Of a stretch of DNA of 64,000 nt, positions 2,588 to 49,681 are shown piece after piece. How positions within the stretch are numbered: position 1 is the first letter of the stretch; each line of letters begins with the position of its first letter. Below the pieces are notes generated by a model. It saw only the letters and a list, made by a program, of their open reading frames with translations, did no database searches and was not told the origin of the DNA. The stretch lies in contig CAYUEL010000002.1 of NCBI GenBank assembly GCA_964443025.1, positions 2,916-66,915 of the forward strand, given 5' to 3'. The position numbers and the translations under genes are program-made. The stretch comes from an uncultured Gammaproteobacteria bacterium. GTDB lineage: Bacteria > Pseudomonadota > Gammaproteobacteria > JABCZS01.

Positions 2588-4585
2588 TTAATTAATAAAT
2601 TTACTTCTCTTCGATCCTAATAATGGCGAAAGAGAAGGACTGTTATGCGAACTAGACGATAAATCATCTTGCTCTTGCTCTTCCTCGTCTTCATCATCGC
2701 TTTCAGCTTCAGGAAATATATACGGAGCAATAGTGATTAAAGGAGCCACCGTCGAGCTGGTTGCATTTGAGTTATTCGCTTGGGTTTGCTGCAAATAAAG
2801 CTCATACAGCGCCTTAAATCGACCATTTGAGATATTCATTAAATCTTTATAGTTACCTTGCTCAATAATAACACCATTCTCAATAAATATAATGTTATCC
2901 GCATTGACAATTGTATTGAGCCGATGAGTAATCACAATCGTGGTTTTCCCTTTTGTGACTATAGCAAGATTCTCCTGTATTTCTTTTTCTTTTTCAATAT
3001 CAAGAGATGCAGTGACTTCATCTAAAATCATGATTGGAGCGCCTTTAATAAGAGCACGCGCAACCGCCACGCGCTGCAGCTGTCCCCCTGAAAGCTTAAC
3101 ACCATTATCTCCCACATCCGTGTTATAACCATCACTCAAATGCTCTGGTTTTAACCCAGCATACTGAAGCGCATTTTGTATAGTCTGTGAAGTTGCACTT
3201 TTATTACCATAGGCAACATTGTCATGAACCGATCCCTTAAAAAGCGCTGGATCTTGCTCTACCAACGCAATAGATTTGCGTAGTGAACGTAATTTAATAT
3301 GACGAATATCATGACCCCCAATTTTAATTTCACCCGCCTGAACCTCATAAAATCGGTTTAATAATTCCGTTATGGTTGATTTCCCTGATCCGCTTAATCC
3401 TACGATTGCAGTCGTTTTTCCTGCAGGAGCAACAAAACTGACATTGGTTAACACAGGCACCGGCTGAACACCCACCTCCGCCGGGTAGGCAAAACTCACA
3501 TTATTAAATTCAATGTTTGCAGTTTGAGGAGTCAAACTCAATGATTTGGCACCGGGCTGATCAAAAATAGTCGGTTGCTTTTCAAGAAAATCAACCACCT
3601 CTTTTAAATTGATATACGCATCGTAAACTTGATTTGTAGCTGTGGAAAGCTCCATCAACATATATGACATTTGCATCATATATAAACTGAACAGAACTAA
3701 ACCCCCTTCTTCGTAATCATCATTTTTTGATTCTTCATATGCAGTATAAGCAAGCATCCCTGCGAGTATAGAATTAGAAATCAGATTAGGAAGAATGGAT
3801 CCTGCATCAATGGCACTACTTTCTGTATCCCGAATGGCATTGTAATTTCTTCGAATTTGAGTAAAGTTTTTTAATTCTTTGGATTCGTTACCAAACAAAT
3901 GTGCATTTCGATAATTCGCTGTGGCAGCTACAACACCATAATAGATTGTATAATCGGCATTATTACGATCTTCCTTGGCTTTTACAACAGGGGCCGCATT
4001 GATAAAAGTTAATATATTATGCAACAACCATGTTCCTGTAAAAGTAAGCCCCACTGGACCATATTCACGGTAAATGACGACAGTCATTGCAATGGCATCA
4101 ATTCCACTAGGAATGGTTGTTGCCAAGAGGCCACGATATAATTTGTCCATGTTAAGATAAGCTTTGCCAACACTTTGCGGTACTGATTTTACAGCATTCA
4201 AATTATTTTTATTGAGGTCAAGCTCATAAACTTTTTCGACAATCTGACGCGCAATTGTACTTGACAGCTGCGTATTGACAGGGTCTAGTAGCATGCGGCG
4301 AAACACAGGCAAGGTTCGCATGAGACCAAATGCAATACCAAAAAGTCCAACCAATAGTACTGGATCCATTTGATCAGAACTACTTTCAGAGCTAGAAGCG
4401 GGGTCGCTTTTTTTATCGAGCTCTTCAAATGATTTTACCAATAAAATAGGGCCAATGATGTTTGATACGGTGGTCAACCCCGTCAGAAATAATGAGCTGG
4501 CTGTACGCACAATAGTTTCCTTTTTAAATAAAAAAGGAATGGTTACTTTTACAAAATTGATCATGGGCTCAAACATAATATACAC
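2588..4585 (-). CDS. ABC exporter (fused TMD-NBD half transporter) with acidic/Ser-rich C-terminal tail
   Basis: The N-terminal half is hydrophobic. The NBD has Walker A GLSGSGKST, ABC signature LSGGQLQRVAVARAL and Walker B ILDEVTASLD. The C-terminus is ESDDEDEEEQEQDDLSSSSHNSPSLS. GTG start at 4585, with in-frame ATGs at residues 4 and 8. It is the last gene of the minus-strand PKS operon. Confidence 0.85.
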   Translation of the reverse strand: MYIMFEPMINFVKVTIPFLFKKETIVRTASSLFLTGLTTVSNIIGPILLVKSFEELDKKSDPASSSESSSDQMDPVLLVGLFGIAFGLMRTLPVFRRMLLDPVNTQLSSTIARQIVEKVYELDLNKNNLNAVKSVPQSVGKAYLNMDKLYRGLLATTIPSGIDAIAMTVVIYREYGPVGLTFTGTWLLHNILTFINAAPVVKAKEDRNNADYTIYYGVVAATANYRNAHLFGNESKELKNFTQIRRNYNAIRDTESSAIDAGSILPNLISNSILAGMLAYTAYEESKNDDYEEGGLVLFSLYMMQMSYMLMELSTATNQVYDAYINLKEVVDFLEKQPTIFDQPGAKSLSLTPQTANIEFNNVSFAYPAEVGVQPVPVLTNVSFVAPAGKTTAIVGLSGSGKSTITELLNRFYEVQAGEIKIGGHDIRHIKLRSLRKSIALVEQDPALFKGSVHDNVAYGNKSATSQTIQNALQYAGLKPEHLSDGYNTDVGDNGVKLSGGQLQRVAVARALIKGAPIMILDEVTASLDIEKEKEIQENLAIVTKGKTTIVITHRLNTIVNADNIIFIENGVIIEQGNYKDLMNISNGRFKALYELYLQQTQANNSNATSSTVAPLITIAPYIFPEAESDDEDEEEQEQDDLSSSSHNSPSLSPLLGSKRSKFIN

Positions 4586-4591
4586 CTCTAT

Positions 4592-6823
4592 TTAATGTTG
4601 ATAAATTTTTGCAAACTGAATTTTTAATAAATGGGCTGTTTCATTCATTAACTTCTCACCAATGGTATCCACGTGACGATTGCGCCAATCACTTAGCTCA
4701 GTTTGCTCAACCCAGCGATTAAATGCACCCATTGCTGGGCCAGTATGAACTTGGTAGTTGATTTTTTCTTCAGCATTTCCAGCTCGCGCAAGTCGAATGG
4801 AATGCATGAAATACCACCTGAAAACCAAAGCCAATTTGTGTTTTGTGTTTTTTTCAGCTTTTTCTATTTGAGAGGGATTGGTACGCAAAAAATATTGCTT
4901 TGTTTCTTCGTAGACCTCTAAAAATGTCTTTCCAAAATATTTTTCTTCGATTTGTTGCCGAGTTGATAAATCAATTGACTCCCAGGATTCATGATGTTGC
5001 CATAAATCATATAACTTATTCGCTCTTCCAGGAAAAAATACGCCCCTTTTCAAGACCTGTACTTTGGCACCTATTTCAAACATATCACCTGCAGGTGCAT
5101 ATTCTGTATCTTGGACATCCATTTTAGAAAGCATTTCTTTAACAACATCACTAGTTCCAGCTTCCACAGTGCATTGGTTAATCGAACCGGTTAAGATGAA
5201 ATCAGCTCCCAGAATAAATGCTGCTGCCGCGGATTCGGGAGTACCAATACCCCCCGCTGCACCCACCCGGACAGATTCTAAATAATGATATTCACGACAA
5301 ATTTTATCTTTCAAACGAATAATTGATGGTAATAAAACCATCATATTTCCCATATCAGTATGGCCGCCAGAATCTGCTTCCACGCAAATATCATCAGCTA
5401 TGGGAACTTGTGCAGCAAGGATGGCTTGTTCTTGTGTAATGTGTCCAGATTGCAAAAGCTCATCAAGCAATTTTGCAGGCGCGGGCCTTAAGAAAACTTC
5501 AGCAACTTCAGGTCTTGAAATTTTAGCCAAAATACGATGCTTAATTAGAACATTGCCGTGGCTATCTTTACTGAGTCCGCTTGCACGGTATTTTACAATC
5601 GCTTGGTTTAATTGGATATATGCAGCTGCTTCTATTTTATCAATCCGATACTTTAGAAATAGATCAATTAATTCAAGTTCAGATTCAACATTATTTAGTT
5701 TACATAAAAGATTCATGCCGAACGAAGATCCTTTGGCGATATTATTCTGAATATATACAATATCCTTTTCAATCAGGTCGATGCTCACGCCACCCGTGCC
5801 ATAATAACTCATCATGGCTGAGTTCGCCATTTTGACAACCATTTCTCTTGATGCGATGCCTTTCGCCATCGCCCCAGCAATATAAGCATAGCGAACATTA
5901 TAGCATTTTTTAAATGATTCCGAACCGAGAGTTTCCCCAGTAATTTTATTTGAATTAGGGTTTTCTTTTTCAATAATTGGCGGCACACTTTGAATTGATT
6001 TCAGCAAATTTGTTAAGACTTTTCCGGGTCCAATTTCTTTAAATTCTACAACCCCCTCTCTTAATAAATACAGGATAGAATCTGTCCATTGCACACAAGA
6101 AGATATTTGTTGGCTCAATAATTGATAAAATGTATTGCCTTGATAAGGTTTCCCAGTCACATTGGAAATTACAGGTATTTTTGGGGTAGAAAATTCTATC
6201 TCTTTAATAAACTCAGCAAATTCTTTCGCCGCAGATTGCATATGCTTAGAGTGAAAAGCTGCACTTACTTTAAGAGGGATATAAATCGCTTTAGCCGCCT
6301 CAAATAAAGTTTTTGCTTGAAAGATTTCATCTTTTTGACCTGAAATCACAATTTGTTCATGGCTGTTATAATTAGCAATATCAATAGAGTTTAATTGATT
6401 ATCTTGTAAGATTTTTTGAATCATATTCATCGGGCATTTAATAACAGCTGCCATCGCACCATTTTGAACTGTACTCATCAGTTCTCCACGTTTCTGAACA
6501 ATTTTAAGAGCCGTTTTAAAATCAACAACATCTGCAAGATGTAGTGCATTATACTCACCCAAACTATGCCCAATAAGGTAATCAACTTTACCTGGGTGTG
6601 TATTGCTATATTCAAGATAATGTAAGTAATTCACTATAAATAAGGCAACCTGTGTATATTTTGTCAGATGAAGTTGGTCGTAAGGATCATTCAAACAAAG
6701 TTCTTTGATTGAGTATTTTAATACCTCATCAGCTTCTTTTGTGACCTCATTAAAAGAATCAAATAAATCCCCCCCCATACCCTTTTGTTGAGATCCTTGA
6801 CCTGGAAACATATAAGCTTTCAT
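4592..6823 (-). CDS. Trans-acting acyltransferase fused to trans-enoyl reductase (AT-ER didomain, PksE-like)
   Basis: N-terminal FabD-like AT (FPGQGSQ, GHSLGEY, AAFHS). C-terminal FMN-dependent FabK/nitronate-monooxygenase-like ER (GAMAKGIAS, GTGGVSIDL). ATG at 6821-6823 with GGAG 8 nt upstream. Confidence 0.85.
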   Translation of the reverse strand: MKAYMFPGQGSQQKGMGGDLFDSFNEVTKEADEVLKYSIKELCLNDPYDQLHLTKYTQVALFIVNYLHYLEYSNTHPGKVDYLIGHSLGEYNALHLADVVDFKTALKIVQKRGELMSTVQNGAMAAVIKCPMNMIQKILQDNQLNSIDIANYNSHEQIVISGQKDEIFQAKTLFEAAKAIYIPLKVSAAFHSKHMQSAAKEFAEFIKEIEFSTPKIPVISNVTGKPYQGNTFYQLLSQQISSCVQWTDSILYLLREGVVEFKEIGPGKVLTNLLKSIQSVPPIIEKENPNSNKITGETLGSESFKKCYNVRYAYIAGAMAKGIASREMVVKMANSAMMSYYGTGGVSIDLIEKDIVYIQNNIAKGSSFGMNLLCKLNNVESELELIDLFLKYRIDKIEAAAYIQLNQAIVKYRASGLSKDSHGNVLIKHRILAKISRPEVAEVFLRPAPAKLLDELLQSGHITQEQAILAAQVPIADDICVEADSGGHTDMGNMMVLLPSIIRLKDKICREYHYLESVRVGAAGGIGTPESAAAAFILGADFILTGSINQCTVEAGTSDVVKEMLSKMDVQDTEYAPAGDMFEIGAKVQVLKRGVFFPGRANKLYDLWQHHESWESIDLSTRQQIEEKYFGKTFLEVYEETKQYFLRTNPSQIEKAEKNTKHKLALVFRWYFMHSIRLARAGNAEEKINYQVHTGPAMGAFNRWVEQTELSDWRNRHVDTIGEKLMNETAHLLKIQFAKIYQH

Positions 6824-6839
6824 ATTCTACTCCAGCCAC

Positions 6840-9800
6840 TTAAACGTATTCAGTAGCAATTTTATATTTAACGGGTGATTCTTGCATATACAGTGCATGA
6901 CAAACCTGTGCAATTTGTGTTAGTATTTCTTCATTCTTAAAGAATGAAAAATGATCCTCTGCTTCTGTTTTATGAATATGCAGGTCTGGAATGACATTCT
7001 TCCATCTCTCTAAACAATTATTTCCTTTATAAAACTTATTTTGTAATGATACGTATTTATTCAAGAATAAACGATCTTGAAAATATTGATTTTTATGTTT
7101 TCTTCTAAAATAATGAAAAGATAAACAATCGGAATTTTCCAATGGTTTAATAATATGGTTTTCCATCGATCTGCTATTTGCGGAAAGAATTTCTTGGTGC
7201 ACACTCAAAATGCTTTTTAACTGTTTTTTTGAATAAGGTATTTTAAATTTGATACAAAAATCAACAAGAGTGTCTAAGTCAATTTCCAAATCCTCTGTCG
7301 CTAGCGGGGCCAGATCAATTTCAGCCAAATTAACGGTTTGAATTTGGCTTAGCATGTCGAATATGATAAGCAAGTAATACATATTTTTAGTCATATAAGT
7401 AGTAATTGGGGAAAATGGAGCATCTACCATTATAATACTTTGCACACGCCTTCCTGCTTTCATTAAATACCTTGCCACTTCATGCGCAATCACTCCCCCT
7501 TGCGAATATCCAGCTAAATGAAATGATGGGTCATCAAAATTATCCATTAATAGTGAGGCATAAATATGGGACATTTCTTCAATATTCGAGCAAGGGGTTA
7601 AATCCTCCTCCTTAACAAGGGAATGCATCGCGTAAAACGAAATTTCATCTTTCATTAACTGAGCTATTGGCTGATAGACTTGCGTGGTTCCAAACGCAGC
7701 ATGAAACCAAAATGTTTTAATATCCTTCGTTCCCTTTTTCAAAAGTTGGAAACTGTTTCTTTTAAATTTATTTTTTTTCATGCTAATTTTTTTATTTTTA
7801 TTTAAAAAAATAGCTTTGTATTTTTCAAACACAAATTGAGAGAGCTGATGAATTGTTGTGTGCTCTAAAAATACCGAGGGTTCTAAATGTATCAATGGAT
7901 ATTGGTTTAAAATTGCGTGTGCAAGTCCGGTGAGGGTAATGGAATCAAATCCATATTCACTTAGGTGTTTATAGATATCGATTTCTTCAGGCTCAATTTG
8001 AAGAATTTCCGCGACTATTTTCTCCAAACCTTCTTGGAATTTTACAAGATGATATTCATCCTGATCTGCAGTCAATGCCTTTAAATTCTTTTTAATATAT
8101 TGAGAATCCCAATCAAGAATTAAAGGATTGCTGCGATGCAATAAAGCTTGCTCGTATTCATTTTGATCAATTTCAGATGCAAGGAGTAAATTACTTAGCA
8201 CGTCATCGCTTAAAGCAGCTAATATCCTATATTTAACCAATTTTAGCTGGTCATCATTTGCATCCGTTTTAATATATGATTTTTTTGAAAATTCTTCCAG
8301 CATCGCTTCTGCCTGAGGATAAGTATGAAACCCCCTAAGGCGATGTATCATTGGAAACGCAGGATAATTTAATAATTTCCAGAATTTTTTGAATTCCTTT
8401 CTTGGATCGGGGAACAACCCAAGCCTGATGCCAAACAGCACACTCGATATGGGCGCCATAATCAAGTAATGTGCATCAGTAATTCGCGAATTTATTTCTT
8501 CATTGGTTAATAACAATTTTCCAGACAACATTTGCGAATACCATCTTGCAATCATTTCCATATAGTAAAATGATCCCGTATAAGCAATTGGGAGAACAGA
8601 TGTATTCACCAAAGTAAAATTATTTTTATAGAATATCCCCATTGAGAAATCATCTAGAACTTTTATGTTTTTTAGATAATTAAAGCGTGTATCATCATTT
8701 CCTATGTTTTTATAACCGGTGCAAAACACTATAATATCCACCTCATGCGCCTGTTGCAGCTCATCTTCAAACATGCACCCTGAAGAATAAAACGCTGCAA
8801 TGTCATTTTTAACTGTAATTTTCTTTTCAGCAACTTTTTTAACTACATGATCATTAATGTGCACTATTGGATTTAATGAAAACTCTTCAAATGTCGGCAG
8901 TATCCCGGAGTTTTCATATATTTTGAAATACTCGGGCATTGATTGGCGCAGTCTTTCGATGATATTGGTTCTATTTTCTTCAACCAATAAACTTGCCGGT
9001 GATTGGCAATCATTGGGCACAAAACCAACCATTCTGGGTAAAATTAACTTATTGGATCGCCTACTCCAAAATACTTCTTTTGCTACCTCACTCGCTTCAT
9101 CTGCAATATCCATTGCGCTCACGCCATTACCAATCACCAGAACACGCTTATTTTCAAATAATTTATTATTATAATATTCTCCTGAATGCATTATCTTGCC
9201 TTTAAATTCATTTAGACCTTGTTTTTCTGGAACATAAGGATCGGTAAAACTTCCTTGGCACATGGCCACACCATCATATATTTTTTTAATTTCTTGACCA
9301 TTGTGAGAAACAACCACTTCCCATTTTCTATTTTTTTCCTCTACCGAAATAACTTTACTGTTAAGCGTGATATGCGAGTTTAAATTATATTCTTTGGAAT
9401 ATAAGTTTAAATATTCCATCACCTCATTAACCGTATAAAAATTACTTTTAATTTTTTCAGGGTAAAAATCGGAGAATACGCTTGTAAAACGTGAGCTTTG
9501 AAATTTTGTATTTTGATAGGCGCCATTCTTTTTTTCTGCACTGTTATTAAGCGCCCACAGTCCACCGATGGTTCCTTTTTCTTCGTAGACATCTGGGCAA
9601 TGACCTTCTTCTAATAGTGATTTTGCCATGACCAAGCCTGCGGGACCAGCCCCAATGATGCAAATATTGAGTTTTTTATTTGACTCTTGTGAATTGTTCA
9701 CTCCTGGAAGCGCCCAATATTCTTTTAAATTAAATGGCATTTTTGGCAACGAAACCCGATAAGGTTTTTCACCTTGCTGATCCCTTACCCAACTTAGGTC

Positions 9801-40653: not shown

Positions 40654-40776
40654 TTACCTCGTGTCAATTACAAGATTATATTACCATGCAAAAATGTTAC
40701 AATAAAGCAAATTACTCTCTTAAATAAAAGAGCGATTGGCAAATATAATGTTAGATTAAAAACTAAGGAGGCTGTT

Positions 40777-42873: not shown

Positions 42874-43608
42874 GCGTTCAATATTTTTTAGCACTTCATC
42901 TTGAAAAAAAGTTACTTCATGCATGGACAGTTCTCGCTCAATATATTGCTGTAAAGTGGGTAAAACCATTAAGCGAAAATGTTCTTTGAGTTTTAAGAGT
43001 GAAATACGTGGCTTATCTGCCATTTGATGTGCAACAGACATAGCCGACTCTACCACATCCGCTCGATCTAGCACTTCAATACCCAACTGTCTTGTTTTTA
43101 ATTCCTCACCATAAAAATTTTTTGCGGTATATAACATTTCCCGGCCAAGCGTTTCACCAAATACTTTTGGAATAATATAAGTAGAACCAAATCCTGGAGT
43201 AAATCCATAACTCATAAAGTTTGCACTATAAATGGATTGTCTCGCTAAAATAATCACATCGGCAAAACATCCCATGGCTAAACCACCGCCTAAAGCATGG
43301 CCCTGCATGGCGCTAATCACAGGAACAGCACAGTTGAGCAAAATATCATGAATTTTTAAATCAGTAAAATTGCATTTTTTTTCATAAATACTCAACAATT
43401 CTTCTTGTGTTCCACCGCAACAGAAATAGTTATCATATCCGTGCAGTACCACCACTTTAATCTGTTCATCTTGATTGATGTGCTGAAAAGCCAAAATAAG
43501 TCCTTTTCTAAGATCTAAAGAAAACATATTGTGATTTTCTCGATCTTCCATAGAGACTCGGGCAATATGCTTGTTCACATAGAGCTTAACAACATGATTT
43601 ATGTCCAT
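42856..43608 (-). CDS. Enoyl-CoA hydratase/crotonase family, beta-branching ECH (PksI-like decarboxylase)
   Basis: Crotonase fold (VVLHGYDNYFCCGGTQEEL, GHALGGGLAM). Last gene of the accessory minus-strand operon. Confidence 0.7.
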   Translation of the reverse strand: MDINHVVKLYVNKHIARVSMEDRENHNMFSLDLRKGLILAFQHINQDEQIKVVVLHGYDNYFCCGGTQEELLSIYEKKCNFTDLKIHDILLNCAVPVISAMQGHALGGGLAMGCFADVIILARQSIYSANFMSYGFTPGFGSTYIIPKVFGETLGREMLYTAKNFYGEELKTRQLGIEVLDRADVVESAMSVAHQMADKPRISLLKLKEHFRLMVLPTLQQYIERELSMHEVTFFQDEVLKNIERLKERQ

Positions 43609-44378
43609 GGTAATTTATCTTCTCGAATGTATTGAAGAATGGCAGATTGAACTTGCTTGTCTTTAATTATTTCACTGGCGGTATTAATTGCGATATTCTC
43701 CATGGCTTCATTCACAATCCATATTTGTCTAAAATAATTTTTAAGGTTTTTAATCGTATTGAATTTTAATAAACGTAAGCGATGCAAGTATTTTTCAATT
43801 ACGCGTTGCGGATCTTCGGCAATTTCATCAATTAAACCAATTTGTTTTGCATCTGCAGAAGAAAATGTGTGACTCATCAACGCCATTTTATACGTGTTTT
43901 GAAAACCAATTTTTCTAATTAGATAAGGCGCAACGCATGCAGGTAATAACCCCCACAACGCTTCAGGTAAACCAAACCGTGACTTTGTCGATGCCACAAC
44001 CAAATCGCTTACAGCAATAATCCCCATTCCCCCGCCAAGCACCACTCCATTCACTTGGCTAACCACAATCTTGGGTAAACAAGACAGGGTTTTAATCAGT
44101 TCCATGTATTTTTTAGACAATAAGACATTTGAATCGGTTTCCTGATTGATGATTTTATTTGCTGCATCAGCCAAATCTAAGCCAGTGCAAAAATAAGATT
44201 CATTTCCTTTGATAAGAATCACTTTATATTGCTCATTTTCTTCGAGTTGGTTTAGAACAAATAAAAGCTCATCTATTAGCGTTTCATTCATGCTGTTTTG
44301 ATTTTCAGCACGATTCATTGTGATTTGGTAAACATCACCTTTCTCGTCACATTGAATTGTTTTAAAATTTTTAATCAT
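43599..44378 (-). CDS. Enoyl-CoA hydratase/crotonase family, beta-branching ECH (PksH-like dehydratase)
   Basis: Crotonase fold (ILIKGNESYFCTGLDL, GVVLGGGMGI). It overlaps both neighbours. Confidence 0.7.
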   Translation of the reverse strand: MIKNFKTIQCDEKGDVYQITMNRAENQNSMNETLIDELLFVLNQLEENEQYKVILIKGNESYFCTGLDLADAANKIINQETDSNVLLSKKYMELIKTLSCLPKIVVSQVNGVVLGGGMGIIAVSDLVVASTKSRFGLPEALWGLLPACVAPYLIRKIGFQNTYKMALMSHTFSSADAKQIGLIDEIAEDPQRVIEKYLHRLRLLKFNTIKNLKNYFRQIWIVNEAMENIAINTASEIIKDKQVQSAILQYIREDKLPWT

Positions 44379-45636
44379 ATTTTTTAACTAAAATTGACGA
44401 GTTGATTCCACCAAACCCAAATGAATTTGACAAAGCATAAGAAACATTTTCCTGATCATTGAGATTAAATTTCCATGAGCAATCCTGAGAAAGTGGATTA
44501 ACCAGGTTTTTATTTTCATGAATATACCCTCCTCGCATTTGTAAAATCGTCGCAATGATTTCAACAACACCTGCCGAAAATAAACAATGACCTGTCAGCG
44601 ATTTTGTAGAGTTAATAAAAAGATTATGGATATGATGAGAAAATACACTCTTAATTGCATCGATCTCAGCTTGATCGCCAATAGTTGAGGAAGTTCCGTG
44701 TGCGTTTACATAATTGATTTCTTCAGGTTGAATTTTTGCTTCAAACATACACTTTCGCATTACTCGTTCTTCGCCTTGCTGATCAGGCTGGGTAGATTTA
44801 TTGCCATCTAGCAGAATAATTCCATGCACTAGTTGAGCCAGTGCCACTCCCCCTCGTTTTTCCATGGATTGCTTTGATTCTAAAATAAGACACCCTGTAC
44901 CTTGACCATAAATAAAACCTTCGCGTTGCTGATCAAAAGGACGGCACGCAAGCTCGGGTGTTTGGTAAAAACTTTTTCCACCCATTGCGCCGATCTGATC
45001 CATCGCTTGGATGGCTAACGGCGAAAGTTCTGATAAGGCGCCAATGACTAAGCAAACCTCTAATTTTCCGAATTGGATCAATTCCATCGCTTTGATAATT
45101 GCCACATTGCCACTTGCTGATGCACCGTTTGCTGCAAATCCTTGACCATGGATTGTCAATAGTTCGCTGATCGTTCCCACGTGATCGGTTTCAAGTGCAT
45201 GAATAGGATATTTAGGTGAAACAAATTGTGGTTTGCTTTGAAATTTTAAGTTCGCCTGGTATTGAAAATGTTGTAAGGTTTGATCAGCAGCCACTACAAT
45301 ACCGATTTGATCACTTTCAGGTGTTAAAGTCTCCAGGCCTGCCATGATCCATGCCTCGAGTGCAGTTAAAACAGAAGTTTGGACGGGCAATGGAGCCCTT
45401 GCTGAATCTTGTGCACGGTTTTGTATTTGCTCTTGAATTTTTGCAAATTGCCCTAAACGCTCAAGATAGGAAAATTCTTGTAGCGGCGCATAAACGGTTT
45501 TGATTTCATGATGATTAACCACTTCATGGTATTGTTTAAAATGCGTGATACCTCGACGCAAGGATTGATCAAAATCAGGAATGGTATTGCCATTAGAGGA
45601 TTGCACACCCATACCTGTGACATAAACCTCCTTCAA
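44371..45636 (-). CDS. Free-standing decarboxylating ketosynthase (KS-S, PksF/MupG-like) of the beta-branching cassette
   Basis: FabF-like. The active-site Cys is replaced by Ser (ANGASASGNVAI versus TACASG). Both His motifs are retained (NAHGTSST, TGHCLFSAG). Confidence 0.8.
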   Translation of the reverse strand: MKEVYVTGMGVQSSNGNTIPDFDQSLRRGITHFKQYHEVVNHHEIKTVYAPLQEFSYLERLGQFAKIQEQIQNRAQDSARAPLPVQTSVLTALEAWIMAGLETLTPESDQIGIVVAADQTLQHFQYQANLKFQSKPQFVSPKYPIHALETDHVGTISELLTIHGQGFAANGASASGNVAIIKAMELIQFGKLEVCLVIGALSELSPLAIQAMDQIGAMGGKSFYQTPELACRPFDQQREGFIYGQGTGCLILESKQSMEKRGGVALAQLVHGIILLDGNKSTQPDQQGEERVMRKCMFEAKIQPEEINYVNAHGTSSTIGDQAEIDAIKSVFSHHIHNLFINSTKSLTGHCLFSAGVVEIIATILQMRGGYIHENKNLVNPLSQDCSWKFNLNDQENVSYALSNSFGFGGINSSILVKKYD

Positions 45637-45908
45637 TTATGGATTCCTTCTTGAGAAATAAGTGTCACAAGCTCTTGAATAGTGTTTGCCTTGGTTAATT
45701 TCACAAGGGGGATGTTGAGTTCTAATTTTTCAAGCGTCAACATGATAATTTCCAAACGATCAACTGAGTTTGCACCTAAGTCTTGCAATGGACGATTAAA
45801 CTCAATTTCTGTCAATTGAGGAAACACACTCAAAATACTGTTTTTCAGTGCCGCAAGTACAATAGACTTTTCCATGTTACCTCCACTCATAAATTCGATG
45901 GAATTCAT
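45633..45908 (-). CDS. Discrete donor acyl carrier protein (AcpK-like)
   Basis: 91 aa with DLGANSVDRLEI (Ser attachment site). It lies between the KS-S and the HMG-CoA synthase homolog. Confidence 0.7.
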   Translation of the reverse strand: MNSIEFMSGGNMEKSIVLAALKNSILSVFPQLTEIEFNRPLQDLGANSVDRLEIIMLTLEKLELNIPLVKLTKANTIQELVTLISQEGIHN

Positions 45909-47136
45909 TAATTTCTTTCAAATAAAGGCGCTTTTCATTTAGTTTTGATAAATAACTATAAGGAATAACGTCACTATGAATTTGGACATTGCGAGTGCCG
46001 AATTTAACCATTTGGCTGGTACGCAGAATTTTTTCATAATCACTGATACTTAATTTAAATCGCTTAGATAAATGAGGTTCAATCTGCATCTGTTTGAGCG
46101 TTTGATGTGACTGCAACGTCACAATACCGCTATAAAATTCTGAGCAACATCCAGAGCCATATGAAAATATTCCTATACGTTTGGGTTTGTTGTACTCCCC
46201 ATTTTCTATCGTGCTGGCTAAAGATAAAAATACCGTTGCCCCCATAATATTACCAACGCGTTGACAATAATTGACCCCCGCTTCTACCCGTTGCGTATAA
46301 TCTTGTTCAATATCTTCCAATGGCATTTTGTAAAGCTTTCTCATCATGCTGCGATGTGCGCCTTTGACCATACCGCCGAACGGTGTATGAAATGACAAAT
46401 AGCCAAAACTCTGTAAATAATCTGCTCCTGAAACTTTGCGTTGGTAAGCTAGAAAAGCTTGTTCACAACAATCTAGATAAGAGCTCAACGATAAATCAGA
46501 GTCTCCTGCTTCACTGTCTGGTACAGGCCTACAAGTATCCATGACTTCATAACCATAGTATCCGTTGGCGCCCACATCCACATGAAAGACTTTGGGTTTT
46601 TCACTGACCAATAATGCAACTGCGCCAGCACCAGAGCTAGGTTCTGCGAATGACCATTCCATATTAATTACATCGCTACCGTCGACAACCATAAATCGAG
46701 AAATATCTGTTGCCACCACCAGTGCTTTTGCTCCCGGCGAAGTCTGCGATAAAATAAAATGAATCGCCATTTGAAATCCAGCTGTACCAGAATAACAGGC
46801 TTGTTTTATTTCGAACATTCGGCAATGTTTGCTTAAGCCCAAATAATCATGAATATAAGTGCTCATAGACTTGCCAAAATCAATACCAGATTCTGTGCAA
46901 GTAATTAATAACTCAATCTGATTTTTTTCTTCTGCAGTTAATTGATCAATCAAAGGTTTTGCCGCATTGACTGCAAATGTCACAGGATCTTCAAATGGTA
47001 GCGAAACTGATTTCTCTTTCATTAATAAATTTGAAAAGCGACCCATATTGAGATTTCGATATTCCGCAAGTTCGGTGACATCTAAAACTGCCGTGCCACC
47101 AAACACATTCATTGATTCAATTCCAACTGCAGGCAT
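45877..47136 (-). CDS. HMG-CoA synthase homolog (HCS, PksG-like) for polyketide beta-branching
   Basis: HMGS family. Active-site Cys context KQACYSGTAGFQ, plus EPSSGAGAVALLVS. Confidence 0.85.
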   Translation of the reverse strand: MPAVGIESMNVFGGTAVLDVTELAEYRNLNMGRFSNLLMKEKSVSLPFEDPVTFAVNAAKPLIDQLTAEEKNQIELLITCTESGIDFGKSMSTYIHDYLGLSKHCRMFEIKQACYSGTAGFQMAIHFILSQTSPGAKALVVATDISRFMVVDGSDVINMEWSFAEPSSGAGAVALLVSEKPKVFHVDVGANGYYGYEVMDTCRPVPDSEAGDSDLSLSSYLDCCEQAFLAYQRKVSGADYLQSFGYLSFHTPFGGMVKGAHRSMMRKLYKMPLEDIEQDYTQRVEAGVNYCQRVGNIMGATVFLSLASTIENGEYNKPKRIGIFSYGSGCCSEFYSGIVTLQSHQTLKQMQIEPHLSKRFKLSISDYEKILRTSQMVKFGTRNVQIHSDVIPYSYLSKLNEKRLYLKEINEFHRIYEWR

Positions 47137-47144
47137 AATTAACC

Positions 47145-48383
47145 TTATAAATTCGGATAAACAATTACTGTCTCATACCCATTTAATGTAGGCACTGATT
47201 TTCTTTTAAGAGAAGAATGAGGGCAGAGAGTCATATTGGGAAATGCTTCAAGAATCTTTTTAAATGCAATTTCCGCTTCTAATCGTGCAAGCGGCGCTCC
47301 TAAACAAAGATGAATGCCTCCACCAAACGCATAATGCTTGCCCTCCTTTCTTTCAACATTAAACATATGAGGGCAAGAAAATACTTCAGGATCACGATTG
47401 GCAGCCGCAATCATCAAGGATAATGTCTCACCTTTGGGTATAGTGATTCCATCAATTTCAGTTGTTTCAGCACATACTCGAGGCACTTCCGTAGCAGGGC
47501 TATCATACCTAAGCATTTCTTCTATGGCTTGCGGCATTAAATTCAAATTGTTTTTTAGCTTTTCAAATTGATCTGGGTTTTGCAATAATGCTACCATACC
47601 ATTACCCAATAGGTCCGTGGTCGTCACATTGCCAGCAACAATAAATATCACACAGGTAGTGATAATCTCTTCGACAGTTAAGTCTCCCATTTCTTGTTCA
47701 TGCGCATTAATCAAATTAGTCATAAAATCATCTTGCGGATTTTTTCTGCGATCAGCTATCATTTGTTTGAAATACTCACCCACTGCTAAGTGAGCAGCAA
47801 AAACTTTTTTCATGCCTTCTTCATCAATAGCAGGATCAACGGATTGAACAAGCTGATCGGACCACTCTTTAAATTGCTTATGTTGACCTTCTTCAATACC
47901 TAATACATAAGCCATCACGCGCGTGGGAAGTAAATATGAAAACTCAGCAATAAAATCAAACTGTGTTTTATGTTTAACGTTAGCAATGATTTCATCCACA
48001 ATGCTTTCAATGCGTTGACGAAAACATTCTATTTCTCTTGGATTAAATGCTTTGTAAAGAAGACTGCGTTGCCGGTGATGTTCTTGGCCATCCATGTCTA
48101 GTAAACCTAACGATCCAATTTGTTGGCCCATTTTCCAAGCAAAAGTATCTTCATTGGCATATTTTTGCCAATTTCTGACACAAACGGTCTTGTTATGAAA
48201 GATTTCACGAATGTAATTTGCCTTAGTGACCACAAAACGTTTTAATTCATCATCGACTAAGATTGGCGCGTGCTCTCTAAGTTCATCAAAAATTTCATGC
48301 ATGCCATCTCTAAATCGCTCATTTTGAGGAAATAAAGCACTTCCTTTTGGCAAATTTTTAGTTTTTACGTCCTTGATACTCAT
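47145..48383 (-). CDS. Cytochrome P450
   Basis: Heme loop FGGGIHLCLGAPLA, EMLRYD (ExxR). ATG 48381-48383 with AGGGA upstream. Confidence 0.9.
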   Translation of the reverse strand: MSIKDVKTKNLPKGSALFPQNERFRDGMHEIFDELREHAPILVDDELKRFVVTKANYIREIFHNKTVCVRNWQKYANEDTFAWKMGQQIGSLGLLDMDGQEHHRQRSLLYKAFNPREIECFRQRIESIVDEIIANVKHKTQFDFIAEFSYLLPTRVMAYVLGIEEGQHKQFKEWSDQLVQSVDPAIDEEGMKKVFAAHLAVGEYFKQMIADRRKNPQDDFMTNLINAHEQEMGDLTVEEIITTCVIFIVAGNVTTTDLLGNGMVALLQNPDQFEKLKNNLNLMPQAIEEMLRYDSPATEVPRVCAETTEIDGITIPKGETLSLMIAAANRDPEVFSCPHMFNVERKEGKHYAFGGGIHLCLGAPLARLEAEIAFKKILEAFPNMTLCPHSSLKRKSVPTLNGYETVIVYPNL

Positions 48384-48391
48384 ATGTATCC

Positions 48392-49600
48392 CTATCGAGT
48401 TGATAGTATAATTTTTTTGTATCCACTAAATGTGGGTACGGATTTTCGCTCTAGCGGTTCTGCCAGTTTCAAAACTGGAAATGCTTTTAGAATCTTTCCA
48501 AATGTAATTTCTATTTCCATGCGCGCTAAATGGACGCCCAAACAAAAATGAGCGCCACCACCAAAAGCTAAATGCGTAGATTCTTGCCTTTCAATATTGA
48601 ACTGATGGGGGCATTGATAAGCTTTCGGATCACGATTTACGCCTGCAAGATTGAGCGTCAACGTTTGCCCTTTGTCAATAGGAACACCTTCCACATTGAC
48701 TTTATCGTAACAAAAACGAGGAATTTCAGTAACTGGAGGATCAAATCGTAGCATCTCTTCAACTGCCAGGGGCATCAAATGGGGATTCGCGCGCAATTTT
48801 TCGAGCTGGTCGGGATTTTGTAACAATGCCACCATGCCATTGCCAATAAGATCTGCAGAGGTTATATTTCCAGCAACAATCAGCTGCAAACAAATCGTCG
48901 CCACTTCTTCTGAAGATAATTTTTCAACACCATCGCCATCATGAATCAGACGTGACATTAAATCATCTCGCCTTTCTAAGGTGCGAGCTTGTACGGTTTT
49001 ATTAAAATATTCGTTTAAGTTTGCATTGGCTGCTTTTGCCAGTTCAAACTTTTCAGGGGATACATCAGGATCACAAATATAAACCCATTCATCAGACCAT
49101 TGCTTAAATTTTGCTTGATCTTGTTTATCAACTCCTAAAATTTCAGCCATAATCATGGTCGGTAAAGGTGCGGCAATAGCTCGTATAAAATCAAACTTTT
49201 CTTGATCTTTGACCTGGTCAATCAGCTCATCCGCAATCGCTTCAAGTTTAGCTCTTAACGGTTCAACGGCTTTGGGTGTAAACGTTTTTGACACTAAGCT
49301 GCGAAGATGATGATGTTTTTCACCATCTTCATCTACCATTCCAAATTTACCATTGCGCGGAGATACAGTTTTCCCCCAAGTGCCTTCAGCGGCCACTTCC
49401 CAATCGCGCCCACAATGAGCTAGATCTTTAAATACTTTACGTGCAGCATCGTATGAAGTCACAACCCAACGTTGAAACACATTATCTTTATACACTGGGG
49501 CCACTTCTCGTATTTCATCTAGGACATCGTGCATACGATTGCGATAACGCTCATCTTGAGCAGTAAGTTGATTTCCTTCGGGTAGCTTTTTGTGGCTCAT
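48392..49600 (-). CDS. Cytochrome P450 (tandem paralog)
   Basis: Heme loop FGGGAHFCLGVHLA, EMLRFD. Likely start is ATG 49598-49600 (MSHKKL) with GAGAGG 5 nt upstream. The ORF extends to 49654. Confidence 0.9.
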   Translation of the reverse strand: MSHKKLPEGNQLTAQDERYRNRMHDVLDEIREVAPVYKDNVFQRWVVTSYDAARKVFKDLAHCGRDWEVAAEGTWGKTVSPRNGKFGMVDEDGEKHHHLRSLVSKTFTPKAVEPLRAKLEAIADELIDQVKDQEKFDFIRAIAAPLPTMIMAEILGVDKQDQAKFKQWSDEWVYICDPDVSPEKFELAKAANANLNEYFNKTVQARTLERRDDLMSRLIHDGDGVEKLSSEEVATICLQLIVAGNITSADLIGNGMVALLQNPDQLEKLRANPHLMPLAVEEMLRFDPPVTEIPRFCYDKVNVEGVPIDKGQTLTLNLAGVNRDPKAYQCPHQFNIERQESTHLAFGGGAHFCLGVHLARMEIEITFGKILKAFPVLKLAEPLERKSVPTFSGYKKIILSTR

Positions 49601-49681
49601 TGAGACCTCTCTCGTTTTATCTAGAAGAAATACATCGTAACATGAGCCTCTCATCAGATCAATCGTGAAATGTTATGTTTC

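What the first reader, a model, noticed from the sequence alone, without database searches (positions are those of the whole stretch)
2588..49654. A trans-AT PKS cluster of about 47 kb with a full beta-branching cassette and a dense set of oxygenases, a likely new polyketide
Two megasynthases carry 9 KS between them, one of them Cys-to-Ser; the terminal module contributes a tenth, non-elongating KS0. None has an integrated AT. The cluster also has two free-standing FabD-like proteins (one fused to a trans-ER), an Sfp-type PPTase, a complete PksF/G/H/I-type beta-branch cassette with donor ACP, an in-line FMO, a luciferase-like monooxygenase, two P450s and an ABC exporter. There is no NRPS module and no PAL/cinnamate-type starter enzyme, so it does not match the legioliulin-type layout I recall. 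The predicted product is a chain of about eight or nine extensions, beta-branched, partly reduced by trans-ER and heavily oxygenated.
Basis: partly seen in the sequence, partly recalled or inferred. Interest (0 to 1): 0.8.

Follow-up and report, generated by a model that had tools for sequence, protein, structure and literature searches.

The report
Orphan trans-AT polyketide cluster with aminopeptidase copies
This is an intact gene cluster for an unknown polyketide, carried on a mobilisable element; it is ordinary in kind but carries two extra methionine-aminopeptidase genes that may reveal what its product attacks.

Summary
Window 2588-49654 carries an intact trans-AT PKS cluster. Three megasynthases hold 10 KS and no integrated AT. 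The N-terminal KS1 has Cys->Ser; the terminal KS10 lacks the HGTGT histidine. A complete HMGS beta-branching cassette, an AT-ER fusion, a second AT-like protein, a PPTase, a MupA-family luciferase-like monooxygenase, an in-line FMO domain, two P450s and an ABC exporter are all present. No frameshifts and no NRPS domains were found.

Corrections:
- At most eight KS can elongate.
- The stand-alone "AT" looks like an acyl hydrolase.
- The cluster probably extends to about 53.8 kb.

One lies 8 bp upstream of PKS1. The other shares an operon with the P450s and the HMGS cassette.

The cluster is not unique. It belongs to a conserved orphan family (Archangium violaceum, a Thiohalomonadales MAG, metagenomes) defined by LLM | KS0-Ox-ACP-TE plus an HMGS cassette. 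The Archangium copy also carries a MetAP and a 72%-identical P450.

No characterised near-identical cluster was found. I could not test whether the Archangium cluster is the archangiumide (arc) cluster. MetAP self-resistance is plausible but unproven. It is a new member of a known kind, of moderate interest.

The parts
2588..4585 (-). ABC exporter with fused membrane and ATPase domains (MsbA-like); last gene of the PKS operon
   Evidence: Pfam ABC_tran E 1.4e-30 plus ABC_membrane. NCBIfam MsbA-like E 4e-94. 6-bp gap to the AT-ER gene.
4592..6823 (-). AT-ER fusion: trans-acting malonyl acyltransferase (GHSLG, Arg117, AAFHS) fused to a PfaD-type trans-enoylreductase
   Evidence: Pfam Acyl_transf_1, FabD_helical_ins and NMO. 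NCBIfam fabD 317 bits (cut-off 261) and pfaD_fam E 1.9e-203. Motifs read.
6840..11558 (-). PKS3 termination module: KS0 (nt 10299-11468; EAQGMGN) - flavin monooxygenase domain Ox (8517-9668; FxGxxxHxxxY motif) - ACP (7830-8027) - TE (6879-7712; GYSQGG)
   Evidence: The Ox domain is 47% identical to PDB 8odw (Gynuella Ox-ACP), E 9e-168, and 54-62% identical to family orthologues.
11563..12711 (-). MupA/Atu3671-family FMN-dependent luciferase-like monooxygenase, partner of the terminal module
   Evidence: Pfam Bac_luciferase E 1.5e-39. NCBIfam TIGR04020 E 4.8e-129, above cut-off. Fused to KS0-Ox-ACP-TE in P0005-P0007. Directly upstream of KS0-Ox in L001-L005 and L010-L014.
12641..27466 (-). PKS2: DH-ACP | KS6-DH-ACP | KS7-ACP | KS8-DH-KR-ACP | KS9-(about 250 aa poorly conserved)-KR-ACP
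   Evidence: The C-terminal ~2900 aa are collinear with orthologous PKSs at 40-46% identity.
15507..17148 (.). Copy 1 of a 1642-bp 100%-identical in-frame direct repeat (end of ACP7, KS9 and flanking linker)
   Evidence: The orthologues' equivalent KS pairs are only 66-68% identical.
19746..21387 (.). Copy 2 of the 1642-bp repeat (end of ACP6, KS8 and flanking linker)
27467..39799 (-). PKS1: KS1(Cys->Ser)-ACP loading module | KS2-KR-ACP | KS3-ACP | KS4-KR-ACP | KS5 (split module continuing in PKS2)
   Evidence: DTASSS lies at nt 39221-39238.
39808..40653 (-). MetAP1: type-I methionine aminopeptidase, first gene of the PKS operon (8 bp upstream of PKS1); candidate self-resistance copy
   Evidence: Pfam Peptidase_M24 E 1.2e-51. 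NCBIfam met_pdase_I 283 bits, above cut-off. PDB P. aeruginosa MetAP E 3.6e-92. Metal ligands and catalytic His are retained. It has unique P181L/Q182R changes and a lower mean identity to 118 homologues.
40777..41217 (+). 146-aa ORF with a weak U-box match, overlapping the PPTase start by 10 nt
   Evidence: Pfam U-box E 3.1e-5, 24.5 bits (cut-off 21.4). The structure prediction was uninformative, pLDDT 36.
41208..41933 (+). Sfp-type phosphopantetheinyl transferase
   Evidence: Pfam ACPS E 3.4e-12, 241 aa.
41911..42873 (+). Stand-alone AT-like protein, probably a proofreading acyl hydrolase (GSSLG; Arg117->Gln)
   Evidence: Pfam Acyl_transf_1 E 1e-31. fabD model only 105 bits against a cut-off of 261. 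Motifs read. The acyl-hydrolase assignment rests on recalled literature.
42856..43608 (-). ECH2 (PksI-like decarboxylase; assigned by order and size)
   Evidence: Pfam ECH_1 E 7e-53. 49-59% identical to orthologues.
43599..44378 (-). ECH1 (PksH-like dehydratase; assigned by order and size)
   Evidence: Pfam ECH_1 E 9e-47.
44371..45636 (-). Free-standing KS with Cys->Ser (NGASAS), PksF-type malonyl-ACP decarboxylase of the beta-branching cassette
45633..45908 (-). Donor ACP of the beta-branching cassette
   Evidence: Pfam PP-binding E 7e-7.
45877..47136 (-). HMG-CoA-synthase homologue (PksG-like)
   Evidence: Pfam HMG_CoA_synt_C and _N. 63-73% identical to orthologues.
47145..48383 (-). Cytochrome P450 a (FGGGIHLCLG)
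48392..49654 (-). Cytochrome P450 b, 72% identical to the P450 that neighbours the MetAP in the Archangium cluster
49682..52894 (-). 1070-aa protein with a central PcnB/CCA-adding-type nucleotidyltransferase domain (aa ~580-815); same operon (27-bp gap to P450b); function unknown
   Evidence: Only about five full-length relatives (24-28% identity) were found among 1.84 billion representatives.
52990..53844 (-). MetAP2: second type-I methionine aminopeptidase, 66% identical to MetAP1, upstream in the tailoring/beta-branch operon

Best explanation
The region is an intact, probably functional trans-AT polyketide biosynthetic cluster of about 51 kb (2588 to about 53844). It sits next to a MOBF relaxase and coupling-protein module, in a low-GC gammaproteobacterium that is probably Legionellales-like.

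Inferred mechanism:
1. The Sfp-type PPTase activates 11 ACPs.
2. The AT half of the AT-ER fusion loads malonate in trans.
3. The AT-like GSSLG protein acts as a proofreading hydrolase.
4. KS1 (Cys->Ser) decarboxylates malonyl-ACP to give an acetyl starter.
5. KS2-KS9 perform up to eight extensions, giving at most a C18 backbone. The modules predict beta-OH (modules 1, 3, 8), beta-keto (modules 2, 6) and enoyl (module 7) states.
6. The HMGS/ACP/KS-S/ECH1/ECH2 cassette converts one or both beta-keto positions (KS3-ACP, KS7-ACP) into methyl or methylene branches.
7. The PfaD-type ER reduces some enoyl intermediates.
8. KS0 passes the full chain to the last ACP. There the MupA-family LLM and the integrated class-B flavin monooxygenase oxygenate it on-line. 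The chemistry could be alpha-hydroxylation, Baeyer-Villiger insertion or epoxidation and is not resolved.
9. The TE releases the product, two P450s tailor it and the ABC transporter exports it.
10. The two embedded type-I MetAP genes most likely give the producer an insensitive copy of the product's target. This step is inferred and is the least certain.

Shown: gene and domain content, active-site residues, operon packing, orthology and the conserved LLM | KS0-Ox-ACP-TE unit. Inferred: starter unit, branch positions, oxygenation chemistry and the role of the MetAPs.
For: - Domain content and active sites.
- Intact ORFs with intergenic distances of -71 to +27 bp inside the operons.
- Family conservation: the PKS2 C-terminus is collinear at 40-46% identity over ~2900 aa. 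LLM is 57-69% identical, HMGS 63-73%, AT-ER 55-57% and P450b 72%.
- LLM and the termination module work together. They are fused in P0005-P0007. LLM lies immediately upstream of KS0-Ox in loci L001-L005 and L010-L014.
- MetAP link:
  - MetAP1 lies 8 bp upstream of PKS1.
  - MetAP2 lies in the tailoring operon.
  - Both are bona fide type-I MetAPs with intact metal ligands.
  - The Archangium orthologous cluster also carries a MetAP beside the P450b orthologue. That MetAP is only 40% identical, whereas the biosynthetic enzymes are 55-72% identical. This pattern fits separate recruitment.
  - In L014, the one family locus where the boundary beyond AT-ER is visible, both the P450 and the MetAP are absent.
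  - MetAP1 is more diverged than its subfamily: 63.8% mean identity against 71.6% among homologues. It has P181L at a position where Pro is invariant in 118 homologues, next to catalytic His178. Both copies share V96L, K111V/I and F113V near metal ligands D97 and D108.
- Mobile context: PIN, ArdA, ArdB-like, T4CP and TrwC.
Against: - No product, expression or resistance data exist.
- MetAP was not seen in L014 or in the sampled flanks of L002-L005 and L010-L013. Most of those loci are truncated.
- The S1-pocket differences from E. coli MetAP that first looked resistance-like (Y62Q, C70N, F177M) are shared by a whole gammaproteobacterial MetAP subfamily, including Legionella adelaidensis. They are therefore not cluster-specific.
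- Whether the host has another, housekeeping map gene is unknown.
- Two consecutive modules (KS5|DH-ACP and KS6-DH-ACP) have a DH but no KR, although their KS look elongation-competent. The chain length and redox pattern are therefore uncertain.
- The Ox domain's closest characterised relative appears to be an N-oxygenating (oxime-forming) domain, whose substrate type is absent here.
Confidence: 0.6

Rival explanations
1. The cluster is a real polyketide pathway, but the two MetAP genes, the 1070-aa nucleotidyltransferase-like gene and the U-box-like ORF are unrelated cargo of the mobile element or ordinary housekeeping paralogues. On this view the product has another target.
For: - MetAP is absent from L014 and from the sampled flanks of most family loci.
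- The MetAPs belong to a widespread gammaproteobacterial subfamily whose closest members sit in non-PKS contexts.
- Catalytic residues are intact and no known resistance mutation is present.
Against: - MetAP1 is 8 bp from PKS1 and MetAP2 shares an operon with the P450s and the HMGS cassette.
- A MetAP independently neighbours the orthologous P450 in the Archangium cluster.
- Two copies on one element, with MetAP1 unusually diverged near His178.
Confidence: 0.35
2. The cluster is a relative of an already characterised pathway. The Archangium violaceum orthologue would be the ~60-kb arc cluster for the allenic macrolide archangiumide, so the window would encode an archangiumide-like macrolide rather than a new scaffold.
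For: - The closest named orthologue lies in A. violaceum CP069396.1.
- PMC13454183 describes arc in A. violaceum SDU8 as ~60 kb, with core PKS genes named arcA and arcC. That naming would fit the PKS-LLM-PKS order seen in L001.
Against: - No sequence, accession or gene table for arc was available.
- I could not confirm that CP069396.1 is strain SDU8.
- Large myxobacterial genomes generally carry many PKS clusters, so another cluster could be arc (my own knowledge, not checked here).
- Even if the link is true, PKS identity is only 40-55% and the termination module differs: Archangium has an extra KS0-ACP.
Confidence: 0.3
3. The 100%-identical 1642-bp KS8/KS9 repeat is an assembly artefact, so PKS2 really has one module fewer or a different KS at one position.
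For: Perfect identity over 1.6 kb inside a modular gene is what mis-assembly of repeats can produce.
Against: - Both copies are in frame with different flanking domains (DH-KR after one, KR after the other).
- The orthologues have the same two modules, with KS pairs already 66-68% identical. Gene conversion on an old duplication is therefore sufficient to explain the repeat.
Confidence: 0.1
4. The cluster is decaying and makes nothing.
For: - KS1 lacks the catalytic Cys.
- Two modules have a DH without a KR.
- About 250 aa of poorly conserved sequence lie in module 8.
Against: - About 34 kb of uninterrupted PKS reading frames.
- All other catalytic motifs are intact.
- The architecture is conserved in distant orthologues.
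- Cys->Ser is the normal state of decarboxylating KSs, such as the cassette KS here.
Confidence: 0.05

Closest known systems
Orphan cluster in Archangium violaceum CP069396.1 (7.16-7.19 Mb; locus L001) and its relatives in metagenomes and a Thiohalomonadales MAG (L002-L005, L010, L011, L014)
   Same: The gene set matches: large trans-AT PKS, MupA-type LLM, KS0-Ox-ACP-...-TE, HMGS/ACP/KS/ECH/ECH cassette, AT and AT-ER. Archangium also has a MetAP and a P450 that is 72% identical to P450b. The last ~2900 aa of PKS2 are collinear at 40-46% identity.
   Different: - PKS identity is only 40-55%.
- The Archangium terminal protein has an extra KS0-ACP before the TE.
- Gene order differs.
- The window has two MetAPs, a second P450, a PPTase, an ABC exporter and the 1070-aa gene.
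- No product is known to me for any member; a link to archangiumide is untested.
LbmA-type KS0-Ox-ACP module of the lobatamide PKS (Gynuella sunshinyii; PDB 8odw). PMC7586987 proposes that it forms the oxime.
   Same: It is the closest solved or named relative of the Ox domain: 47% identity, E 9e-168. The KS0-Ox-ACP order is the same.
   Different: - The Lbm-type module follows an A-PCP amino-acid loading module. This is visible in the Pseudomonas homologue L006.
- Here the Ox module follows a KS-KR-ACP polyketide module, is partnered with an LLM and ends in a TE.
- No nitrogen source is encoded.
- That 8odw is LbmA-Ox is my recollection; the paper is not in the library.
OocK/PedG/TobD-type and LbmC-type Baeyer-Villiger oxygen-insertion modules of trans-AT PKSs (PMC6174933, PMC7586987)
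   Same: A class-B flavin monooxygenase acts on ACP-bound intermediates during trans-AT assembly. I recall, without testing it here, that the oocydin cluster also combines an FMO, an LLM, an HMGS cassette and P450s.
   Different: - OocK-type enzymes are free-standing and act on beta-keto thioesters. Here the domain is integrated and follows a KR-containing module.
- No sequences of these enzymes were available for comparison.
FR901464/spliceostatin terminal oxygenase domain
   Same: An FMO-type domain in the last PKS module before release. It was first proposed to convert the thioester to a thiocarbonate and was later concluded to be an epoxidase (as summarised in PMC6174933).
   Different: - That pathway is a PKS-NRPS hybrid with a different starter.
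- Its sequence relationship to this Ox domain was not tested.
MupA of mupirocin biosynthesis (NCBIfam TIGR04020)
   Same: The LLM belongs to this family, E 4.8e-129.
   Different: The family name says nothing about the reaction here. The pairing with KS0-Ox-ACP-TE is specific to this cluster family.
Target-duplicate self-resistance genes in biosynthetic clusters (the fungal fumagillin cluster with MetAP2; mupirocin MupM and kalimantacin BatG among trans-AT PKSs; all from my own knowledge)
   Same: An extra copy of an essential enzyme is embedded in, and co-transcribed with, the pathway.
   Different: Full-text searches found no bacterial trans-AT PKS reported with a MetAP. Resistance has not been shown here.
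Legioliulin trans-AT PKS of Legionella (PMC5126622)
   Same: A trans-AT PKS in a (probably) Legionellales-like host.
   Different: - There is no PAL/cinnamate starter and no aromatic-ring-forming module series.
- This cluster has its own AT, a beta-branching cassette and oxygenases.
- No DNA similarity to Legionella plasmids was found.

Membership tests
trans-AT modular polyketide synthase cluster | Multimodular KS-containing megasynthases without integrated AT domains | tested here: met
   10 KS domains and no Acyl_transf_1 hit in PKS1-3.
trans-AT modular polyketide synthase cluster | Free-standing malonyl-specific AT encoded in the cluster | tested here: met
   The AT-ER N-terminus has GHSLG, Arg117 and AAFHS. 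The fabD model scores 317 bits against a cut-off of 261.
trans-AT modular polyketide synthase cluster | Carrier proteins with the phosphopantetheine Ser, plus a PPTase | tested here: met
   10 in-line ACPs and 1 free ACP with a conserved Ser. ACPS-family PPTase present.
HMGS beta-branching cassette (PksF/G/H/I + AcpK type) | HMGS, donor ACP, Cys->Ser decarboxylating KS, ECH1 and ECH2 together | tested here: met
   All five genes are contiguous at 42856-47136. The KS reads NGASAS.
HMGS beta-branching cassette (PksF/G/H/I + AcpK type) | Acceptor module that leaves a beta-keto group, with a beta-branch-type ACP | tested here: inconclusive
   KS3-ACP and KS7-ACP lack KR and DH, so they are candidates. 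I could not apply the ACP signature reliably from memory.
LLM | KS0-Ox-ACP-TE orphan cluster family (defined here) | MupA-type LLM gene immediately upstream of, or fused to, a KS0-FMO-ACP(-TE) protein, with an HMGS cassette nearby | tested here: met
   Ox-domain identity within the family is 54-62%.
LbmA-type oxime-forming module | Ox domain of that clade | tested here: inconclusive
   47% identical to 8odw, against 54-62% within the window's own family. A neighbour-joining tree places the Lbm/Pseudomonas clade next to or inside the family.
LbmA-type oxime-forming module | Preceded by an A-PCP module that supplies an amino group | tested here: not met
   No AMP-binding or condensation domain is present anywhere in the cluster. 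The homologue L006 has A-PCP-KS-Ox.
OocK-type Baeyer-Villiger oxygen-insertion module | Oxygenase acting on a beta-keto thioester made by a module without KR | tested here: not met
   The preceding module has a KR with an intact Lys/Ser/Tyr/Asn set. The oxygenase is integrated, not free-standing.
OocK-type Baeyer-Villiger oxygen-insertion module | Sequence membership in the OocK/PedG/TobD clade | not tested
   No reference sequences were obtainable with the tools.
Target-duplicate self-resistance (MetAP) | Functional paralogue of an essential enzyme inside, and co-transcribed with, the cluster | tested here: met
   Type-I MetAPs with intact ligands. Gaps of 8 bp to PKS1 and 95 bp within the tailoring operon.
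Target-duplicate self-resistance (MetAP) | Association conserved across related clusters | tested here: inconclusive
   Present with the P450b orthologue in Archangium. Absent together with that P450 in L014. The other loci are truncated.
Target-duplicate self-resistance (MetAP) | A separate housekeeping copy elsewhere in the genome, and reduced inhibitor sensitivity of the cluster copy | not testable with these tools
   The rest of the genome was not retrievable. There is no biochemistry.
Archangiumide (arc) cluster family | Orthology to the deposited arc cluster of A. violaceum SDU8 | not testable with these tools
   The arc sequence and gene table are not held.
Legioliulin-type cluster | PAL/cinnamate-type starter enzymes | tested here: not met
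   No such domains were found in any ORF of the window.

The most novel reading that the evidence does not exclude
The cluster, and its Archangium relative, would make a polyketide that inhibits bacterial and/or eukaryotic methionine aminopeptidase. The activity would depend on the P450b-dependent oxygenation, and MetAP1/MetAP2 would be insensitive target copies. This would be the first MetAP-directed trans-AT polyketide. Its chain-end chemistry would come from an uncharacterised LLM + KS0-Ox-ACP-TE termination module. The pathway would be carried on a mobilisable element of an intracellular-type gammaproteobacterium.
Probability: 0.3. Interest if true: 0.7.

Novelty: new member of a known kind. 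Interest (0 to 1): 0.45.

Why it matters
Orphan trans-AT PKS clusters are common, so the cluster itself is not surprising. Three features make it a useful lead.

1. **Embedded MetAP genes.** Two MetAP genes are co-transcribed with the pathway, and a MetAP recurs beside the orthologous P450 in a myxobacterial relative. This gives a concrete, cheaply testable hypothesis about the product's target. MetAP is a validated antibacterial and anti-angiogenic target with few natural-product inhibitors.

2. **A recurrent termination unit.** The conserved LLM | KS0-Ox-ACP-TE unit, sometimes fused into one protein, is a recurring trans-AT module type. I found no description of its chemistry.

3. **Mobility.** The cluster sits next to a MOBF relaxase and coupling protein. 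Its biosynthetic enzymes are 55-72% identical between a gammaproteobacterium and a myxobacterium. This documents long-range horizontal movement of the pathway.

Tried and rejected
- **Source organism.** Exact-protein look-ups found the proteins only on one unnamed 73,959-bp NCBI contig. The scan of GTDB representative genomes did not return it. Megablast against plasmids found nothing. The coupling protein and relaxase are only 28-32% identical to Legionella plasmid proteins. The host assignment is therefore indirect. It rests on GC of about 0.37, MetAPs 65-70% identical to Legionellaceae and other gammaproteobacterial MetAPs, the closest MetAP sitting in an Ank/MACPF-rich contig, and the U-box-like ORF.
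- **MetAP pocket substitutions.** The changes relative to E. coli (Y62Q, C70N, F177M) first looked like resistance changes. I rejected this because all 118 subfamily homologues share them.
- **Unassigned stretch in module 8.** About 250 aa have no Pfam or PDB match and are poorly conserved among orthologues. Archangium has a degenerate Rossmann-like insert there. I treat this stretch as a linker or relic, not a new domain.
- **Oxime-forming reading of the Ox domain.** Rejected for want of any amino-acid loading module.
- **Metagenome scan with a P450b alignment.** No relatives found. The scan with the terminal-module alignment gave only two loci, both with internal LLM | KS0-Ox modules.
- **AlphaFold of the U-box-like ORF without an alignment.** Failed, pLDDT 36.
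- **Promoter and terminator scans.** Not above shuffled expectation.
- **Other negatives.** No tRNA or Rfam hits. No PADLOC hits for the unknown ORFs.
- **Literature.** Nothing found on MetAP with trans-AT PKS or on PDB 8odw. The arc cluster details were not obtainable.

Full report
**1. Observation**

The ORF map shows an almost unbroken run of minus-strand genes from 2588 to 54821, interrupted only by a small plus-strand operon at 40777-42873.

Pfam, NCBIfam and my own phmmer mapping give the following architecture:
- PKS1 (27467-39799, 4110 aa): KS1-ACP | KS2-KR-ACP | KS3-ACP | KS4-KR-ACP | KS5.
- PKS2 (12641-27466, 4941 aa): DH-ACP | KS6-DH-ACP | KS7-ACP | KS8-DH-KR-ACP | KS9-KR-ACP.
- PKS3 (6840-11558, 1572 aa): KS10-FMO-ACP-TE.

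No acyltransferase, adenylation or condensation domain occurs in these proteins.

An alignment of the KS domains shows three points:
- KS1 reads DTASSS, so the catalytic Cys is replaced by Ser.
- KS10 keeps the Cys but reads EAQGMGN instead of HGTGT, so it is a non-elongating KS0.
- KS2-KS9 keep the Cys/His/His set.

- AT-ER fusion (4592-6823).
- AT-like protein (41911-42873).
- PPTase (41208-41933).
- HMGS, ACP, KS (NGASAS), ECH and ECH (42856-47136).
- Luciferase-like monooxygenase (11563-12711).
- Two P450s with intact haem-binding loops (47145-49654).
- ABC exporter (2588-4585).

All reading frames are open.

**2. Refinements**

- Because KS1 and KS10 cannot condense, at most eight extensions are possible.
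- KS1-ACP at the N-terminus carries the same Cys->Ser change as the cassette's decarboxylating KS. I therefore infer a malonyl-decarboxylating loading module that gives an acetyl starter.
- The AT half of the AT-ER fusion has GHSLG, Arg117 and AAFHS and passes the NCBIfam fabD cut-off. Its ER half is PfaD-type, E 1.9e-203.
- The stand-alone AT-like protein has GSSLG and Gln at the Arg117 position. It scores 105 bits against a cut-off of 261. From recalled literature on PedC-type enzymes, I read it as an acyl hydrolase.
- KR1, KR3 and KR7 carry the Asp typical of B-type KRs. KR8 does not, and it has an insertion, but it keeps the catalytic residues.
- DH4, DH5 and DH7 keep the catalytic His. 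DH4 has atypical motifs. DH4 and DH5 sit in modules without a KR, so the redox pattern there cannot be predicted with confidence. Their best PDB matches are ordinary trans-AT dehydratases.
- About 250 aa between KS9 and KR8 have no detectable homology and are poorly conserved in orthologues.

**3. Cluster limits and operons**

Intergenic distances are -71 to +27 bp within three units:
- MetAP1-PKS1-PKS2-LLM-PKS3-AT/ER-ABC.
- U-box-like ORF-PPTase-AT-like protein.
- MetAP2-(95 bp)-1070-aa protein-(27 bp)-P450b-P450a-HMGS-ACP-KS-ECH-ECH.

To the right lie a PIN toxin, ArdA, an ArdB-type antirestriction protein, a TrwB-type coupling protein and a TrwC relaxase that runs off the window. The cluster thus sits on a plasmid or an integrative element. 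No tRNA or Rfam feature marks an integration site.

**4. The two MetAP genes**

Both 39808-40653 and 52990-53844 encode type-I methionine aminopeptidases. The evidence is NCBIfam met_pdase_I at 283 bits, above cut-off, and PDB P. aeruginosa MetAP at E 3.6e-92. All metal ligands and catalytic histidines are present. The two proteins are 66% identical to each other.

They belong to a gammaproteobacterial subfamily at 63-70% identity. That subfamily includes Legionella adelaidensis, a Legionellaceae MAG, Xenorhabdus and Teredinibacter.

I initially thought that pocket differences from E. coli MetAP indicated resistance. All 118 retrieved homologues share them, so I dropped that idea. What remains is the following:
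- MetAP1 is more diverged than its relatives: 63.8% mean identity against 71.6% among homologues.
- MetAP1 has P181L at a position where Pro is invariant, and Q182R. Both lie next to catalytic His178.
- Both copies share V96L, K111V/I and F113V beside metal ligands D97 and D108.

**5. Relatives**

Every window protein I looked up is a singleton at 90% identity among about 15 billion proteins. All come from one unnamed 73,959-bp NCBI contig.

The terminal module's nearest relatives (44-53% identity) define a family:
- Archangium violaceum CP069396.1 (L001).
- A Thiohalomonadales MAG (L004/L005).
- Several metagenome contigs (L002, L003, L010, L011, L014).

All of them have a large trans-AT PKS followed by a MupA-type LLM and then KS0-Ox-ACP(-KS0-ACP)-TE. 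An HMGS cassette and AT/AT-ER genes follow in every locus whose downstream flank belongs to the cluster; in L004/L005 unrelated genes follow the TE. In P0005-P0007 the LLM is fused to the N-terminus of the module.

Identities to the window proteins are as follows:

| Protein | Identity |
|---|---|
| PKS2 C-terminus (~2900 aa, collinear) | 40-46% |
| LLM | 57-69% |
| HMGS | 63-73% |
| AT-ER | 55-57% |
| P450b vs Archangium P450 | 72% |

Two further loci (L012, L013) have LLM | KS0-Ox in the middle of an assembly line.

The Archangium cluster has a MetAP directly beside the P450b orthologue. That MetAP is only 40% identical to the window copies, far less than the biosynthetic enzymes. This fits separate recruitment of a MetAP in each lineage.

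L014 is a relative with the same downstream gene order. It ends after AT-ER and has neither the P450 nor a MetAP. P450b and MetAP therefore co-occur in two clusters and are jointly absent in one. This is suggestive, but the sample is very small.

**6. The terminal oxygenation module**

The FMO domain carries the FxGxxxHxxxY motif. Its identities are as follows:

| Comparator | Identity |
|---|---|
| Family orthologues | 54-62% |
| PDB 8odw (Ox-ACP didomain, Gynuella sunshinyii) | 47% |
| Pseudomonas homologues | 43-44% |
| A further KS-FMO group | 32-34% |

The Pseudomonas homologue L006 is A-PCP-KS-Ox | ACP-KS-MT. This is the architecture of the lobatamide LbmA starter module, which PMC7586987 proposes to form the oxime. 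I believe 8odw is that domain, but the relevant paper is not in the library.

The window's module follows a polyketide KS-KR-ACP module, and no nitrogen source is encoded. The oxime function therefore does not transfer.

The literature gives other precedents:
- OocK-type and LbmC-type Baeyer-Villiger insertion (PMC6174933, PMC7586987).
- The FR901464 terminal oxygenase. It was first proposed to make a thiocarbonate and was later concluded to be an epoxidase (PMC6174933).

I conclude that the LLM and Ox act together on the chain held on the last ACP before TE release. The joint action is shown by the fusion and by conserved adjacency. The exact reaction is unresolved.

**7. Internal repeat**

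A 1642-bp stretch (15507-17148) is 100% identical to 19746-21387. It covers the end of an ACP, a whole KS and its flanking linker, so KS8 and KS9 are identical.

In the orthologues L003 and L004 the equivalent two KSs are 66-68% identical to each other. I therefore read the repeat as an old module duplication that was recently homogenised by gene conversion in this lineage. An assembly artefact is less likely because both copies are in frame with different downstream domains.

**8. Comparison with known systems and novelty**

The cluster meets every tested criterion of a trans-AT PKS with an HMGS beta-branching cassette. It is not legioliulin-like. It is not near-identical to anything retrievable.

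Full-text searches found no report of a trans-AT PKS cluster with a MetAP.

One open lead remains. A. violaceum SDU8 makes the allenic macrolide archangiumide from a ~60-kb arc cluster whose core PKS genes are named arcA and arcC (PMC13454183). That naming would fit the PKS-LLM-PKS order of L001. I could obtain neither the arc sequence nor its gene table. If they are the same cluster, the window encodes a diverged member of the archangiumide family. In that case MetAP would be a sensible target to test for a compound reported to lack antibacterial, antifungal, anticancer, antioxidant or anti-inflammatory activity (PMC10835656).

**9. Verdict**

- The added value lies in the MetAP genes as a target hypothesis, the recurrent LLM | KS0-Ox-ACP-TE module, and the mobile context.
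- Confidence in the core identification is high, at about 0.95.
- Confidence in the MetAP self-resistance reading is about 0.4-0.5.
- The detailed product structure cannot be given.

Noticed in passing
window 15507-17148 and 19746-21387: A 1642-bp perfectly identical in-frame direct repeat inside PKS2 makes KS8 and KS9 identical, together with the ends of ACP6/ACP7 and the KS flanking linkers. The equivalent KS pairs in orthologues are 66-68% identical, which suggests recent gene conversion on an old module duplication.
   Followed up: yes
window 40777-41217 (+): A 146-aa ORF with a weak Pfam U-box match (E 3e-5, just above cut-off) overlaps the PPTase start by 10 nt. If real, it is a eukaryote-like E3-ligase-type effector gene inside the cluster. 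Single-sequence AlphaFold was uninformative.
   Followed up: partly
window 49682-52894 (-): A 1070-aa protein with a central PcnB/CCA-adding-type nucleotidyltransferase domain and about 580 aa of unknown N-terminal sequence sits between MetAP2 and P450b in the same operon. Only about five full-length relatives (24-28% identity) exist among 1.84 billion representatives. GC dips to 0.315 here.
   Followed up: partly
window 55912-64000: A mobile-element module: PIN toxin (55912-56340), ArdA (57122-57646), ArdB-type antirestriction protein (57718-58155), DUF6471 (58287-58538), TrwB-type coupling protein (59425-61275) and a TrwC/MOBF relaxase (61285 to the window end). They are only 28-32% identical to Legionella plasmid proteins.
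   Followed up: partly
window 39808-40653 and 52990-53844; protein P0127: Both MetAPs carry a C-terminal extension of about 25 aa (…EE.E.F…F..EV.ELL..ARA). It is shared with one MAG protein, P0127, which is 74% identical to MetAP2. Most subfamily members lack the extension.
   Followed up: partly
window 281-1495 (+) and 1554-2441 (+): A PAS-HisKA-HATPase sensor kinase and a 295-aa ORF with no family match lie just left of the ABC exporter. They could be regulators or simply the border of the cluster.
   Followed up: no
window 53913-54821 (-): A 302-aa ORF with no Pfam, NCBIfam or PADLOC match lies 68 bp upstream of MetAP2. It is possibly the first gene of that operon.
   Followed up: partly
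L012 1114-5833; L013 4508-6882: In two JGI metagenome contigs the LLM | KS0-Ox pair is followed by further KS modules. The unit can therefore be internal to an assembly line as well as terminal.
   Followed up: partly
L010 15491-24754: This family member carries two HMGS cassettes. The second HMGS is split into two ORFs (20417-21208 and 21205-21675), which may be a frameshift.
   Followed up: no
L006 8117-17400 (Pseudomonas sp. JDS08PS003 chromosome): An A-PCP-KS-Ox | ACP-KS-MT architecture matches the lobatamide LbmA-type starter. This may be an oximidine- or lobatamide-like cluster in a cultured Pseudomonas.
   Followed up: no
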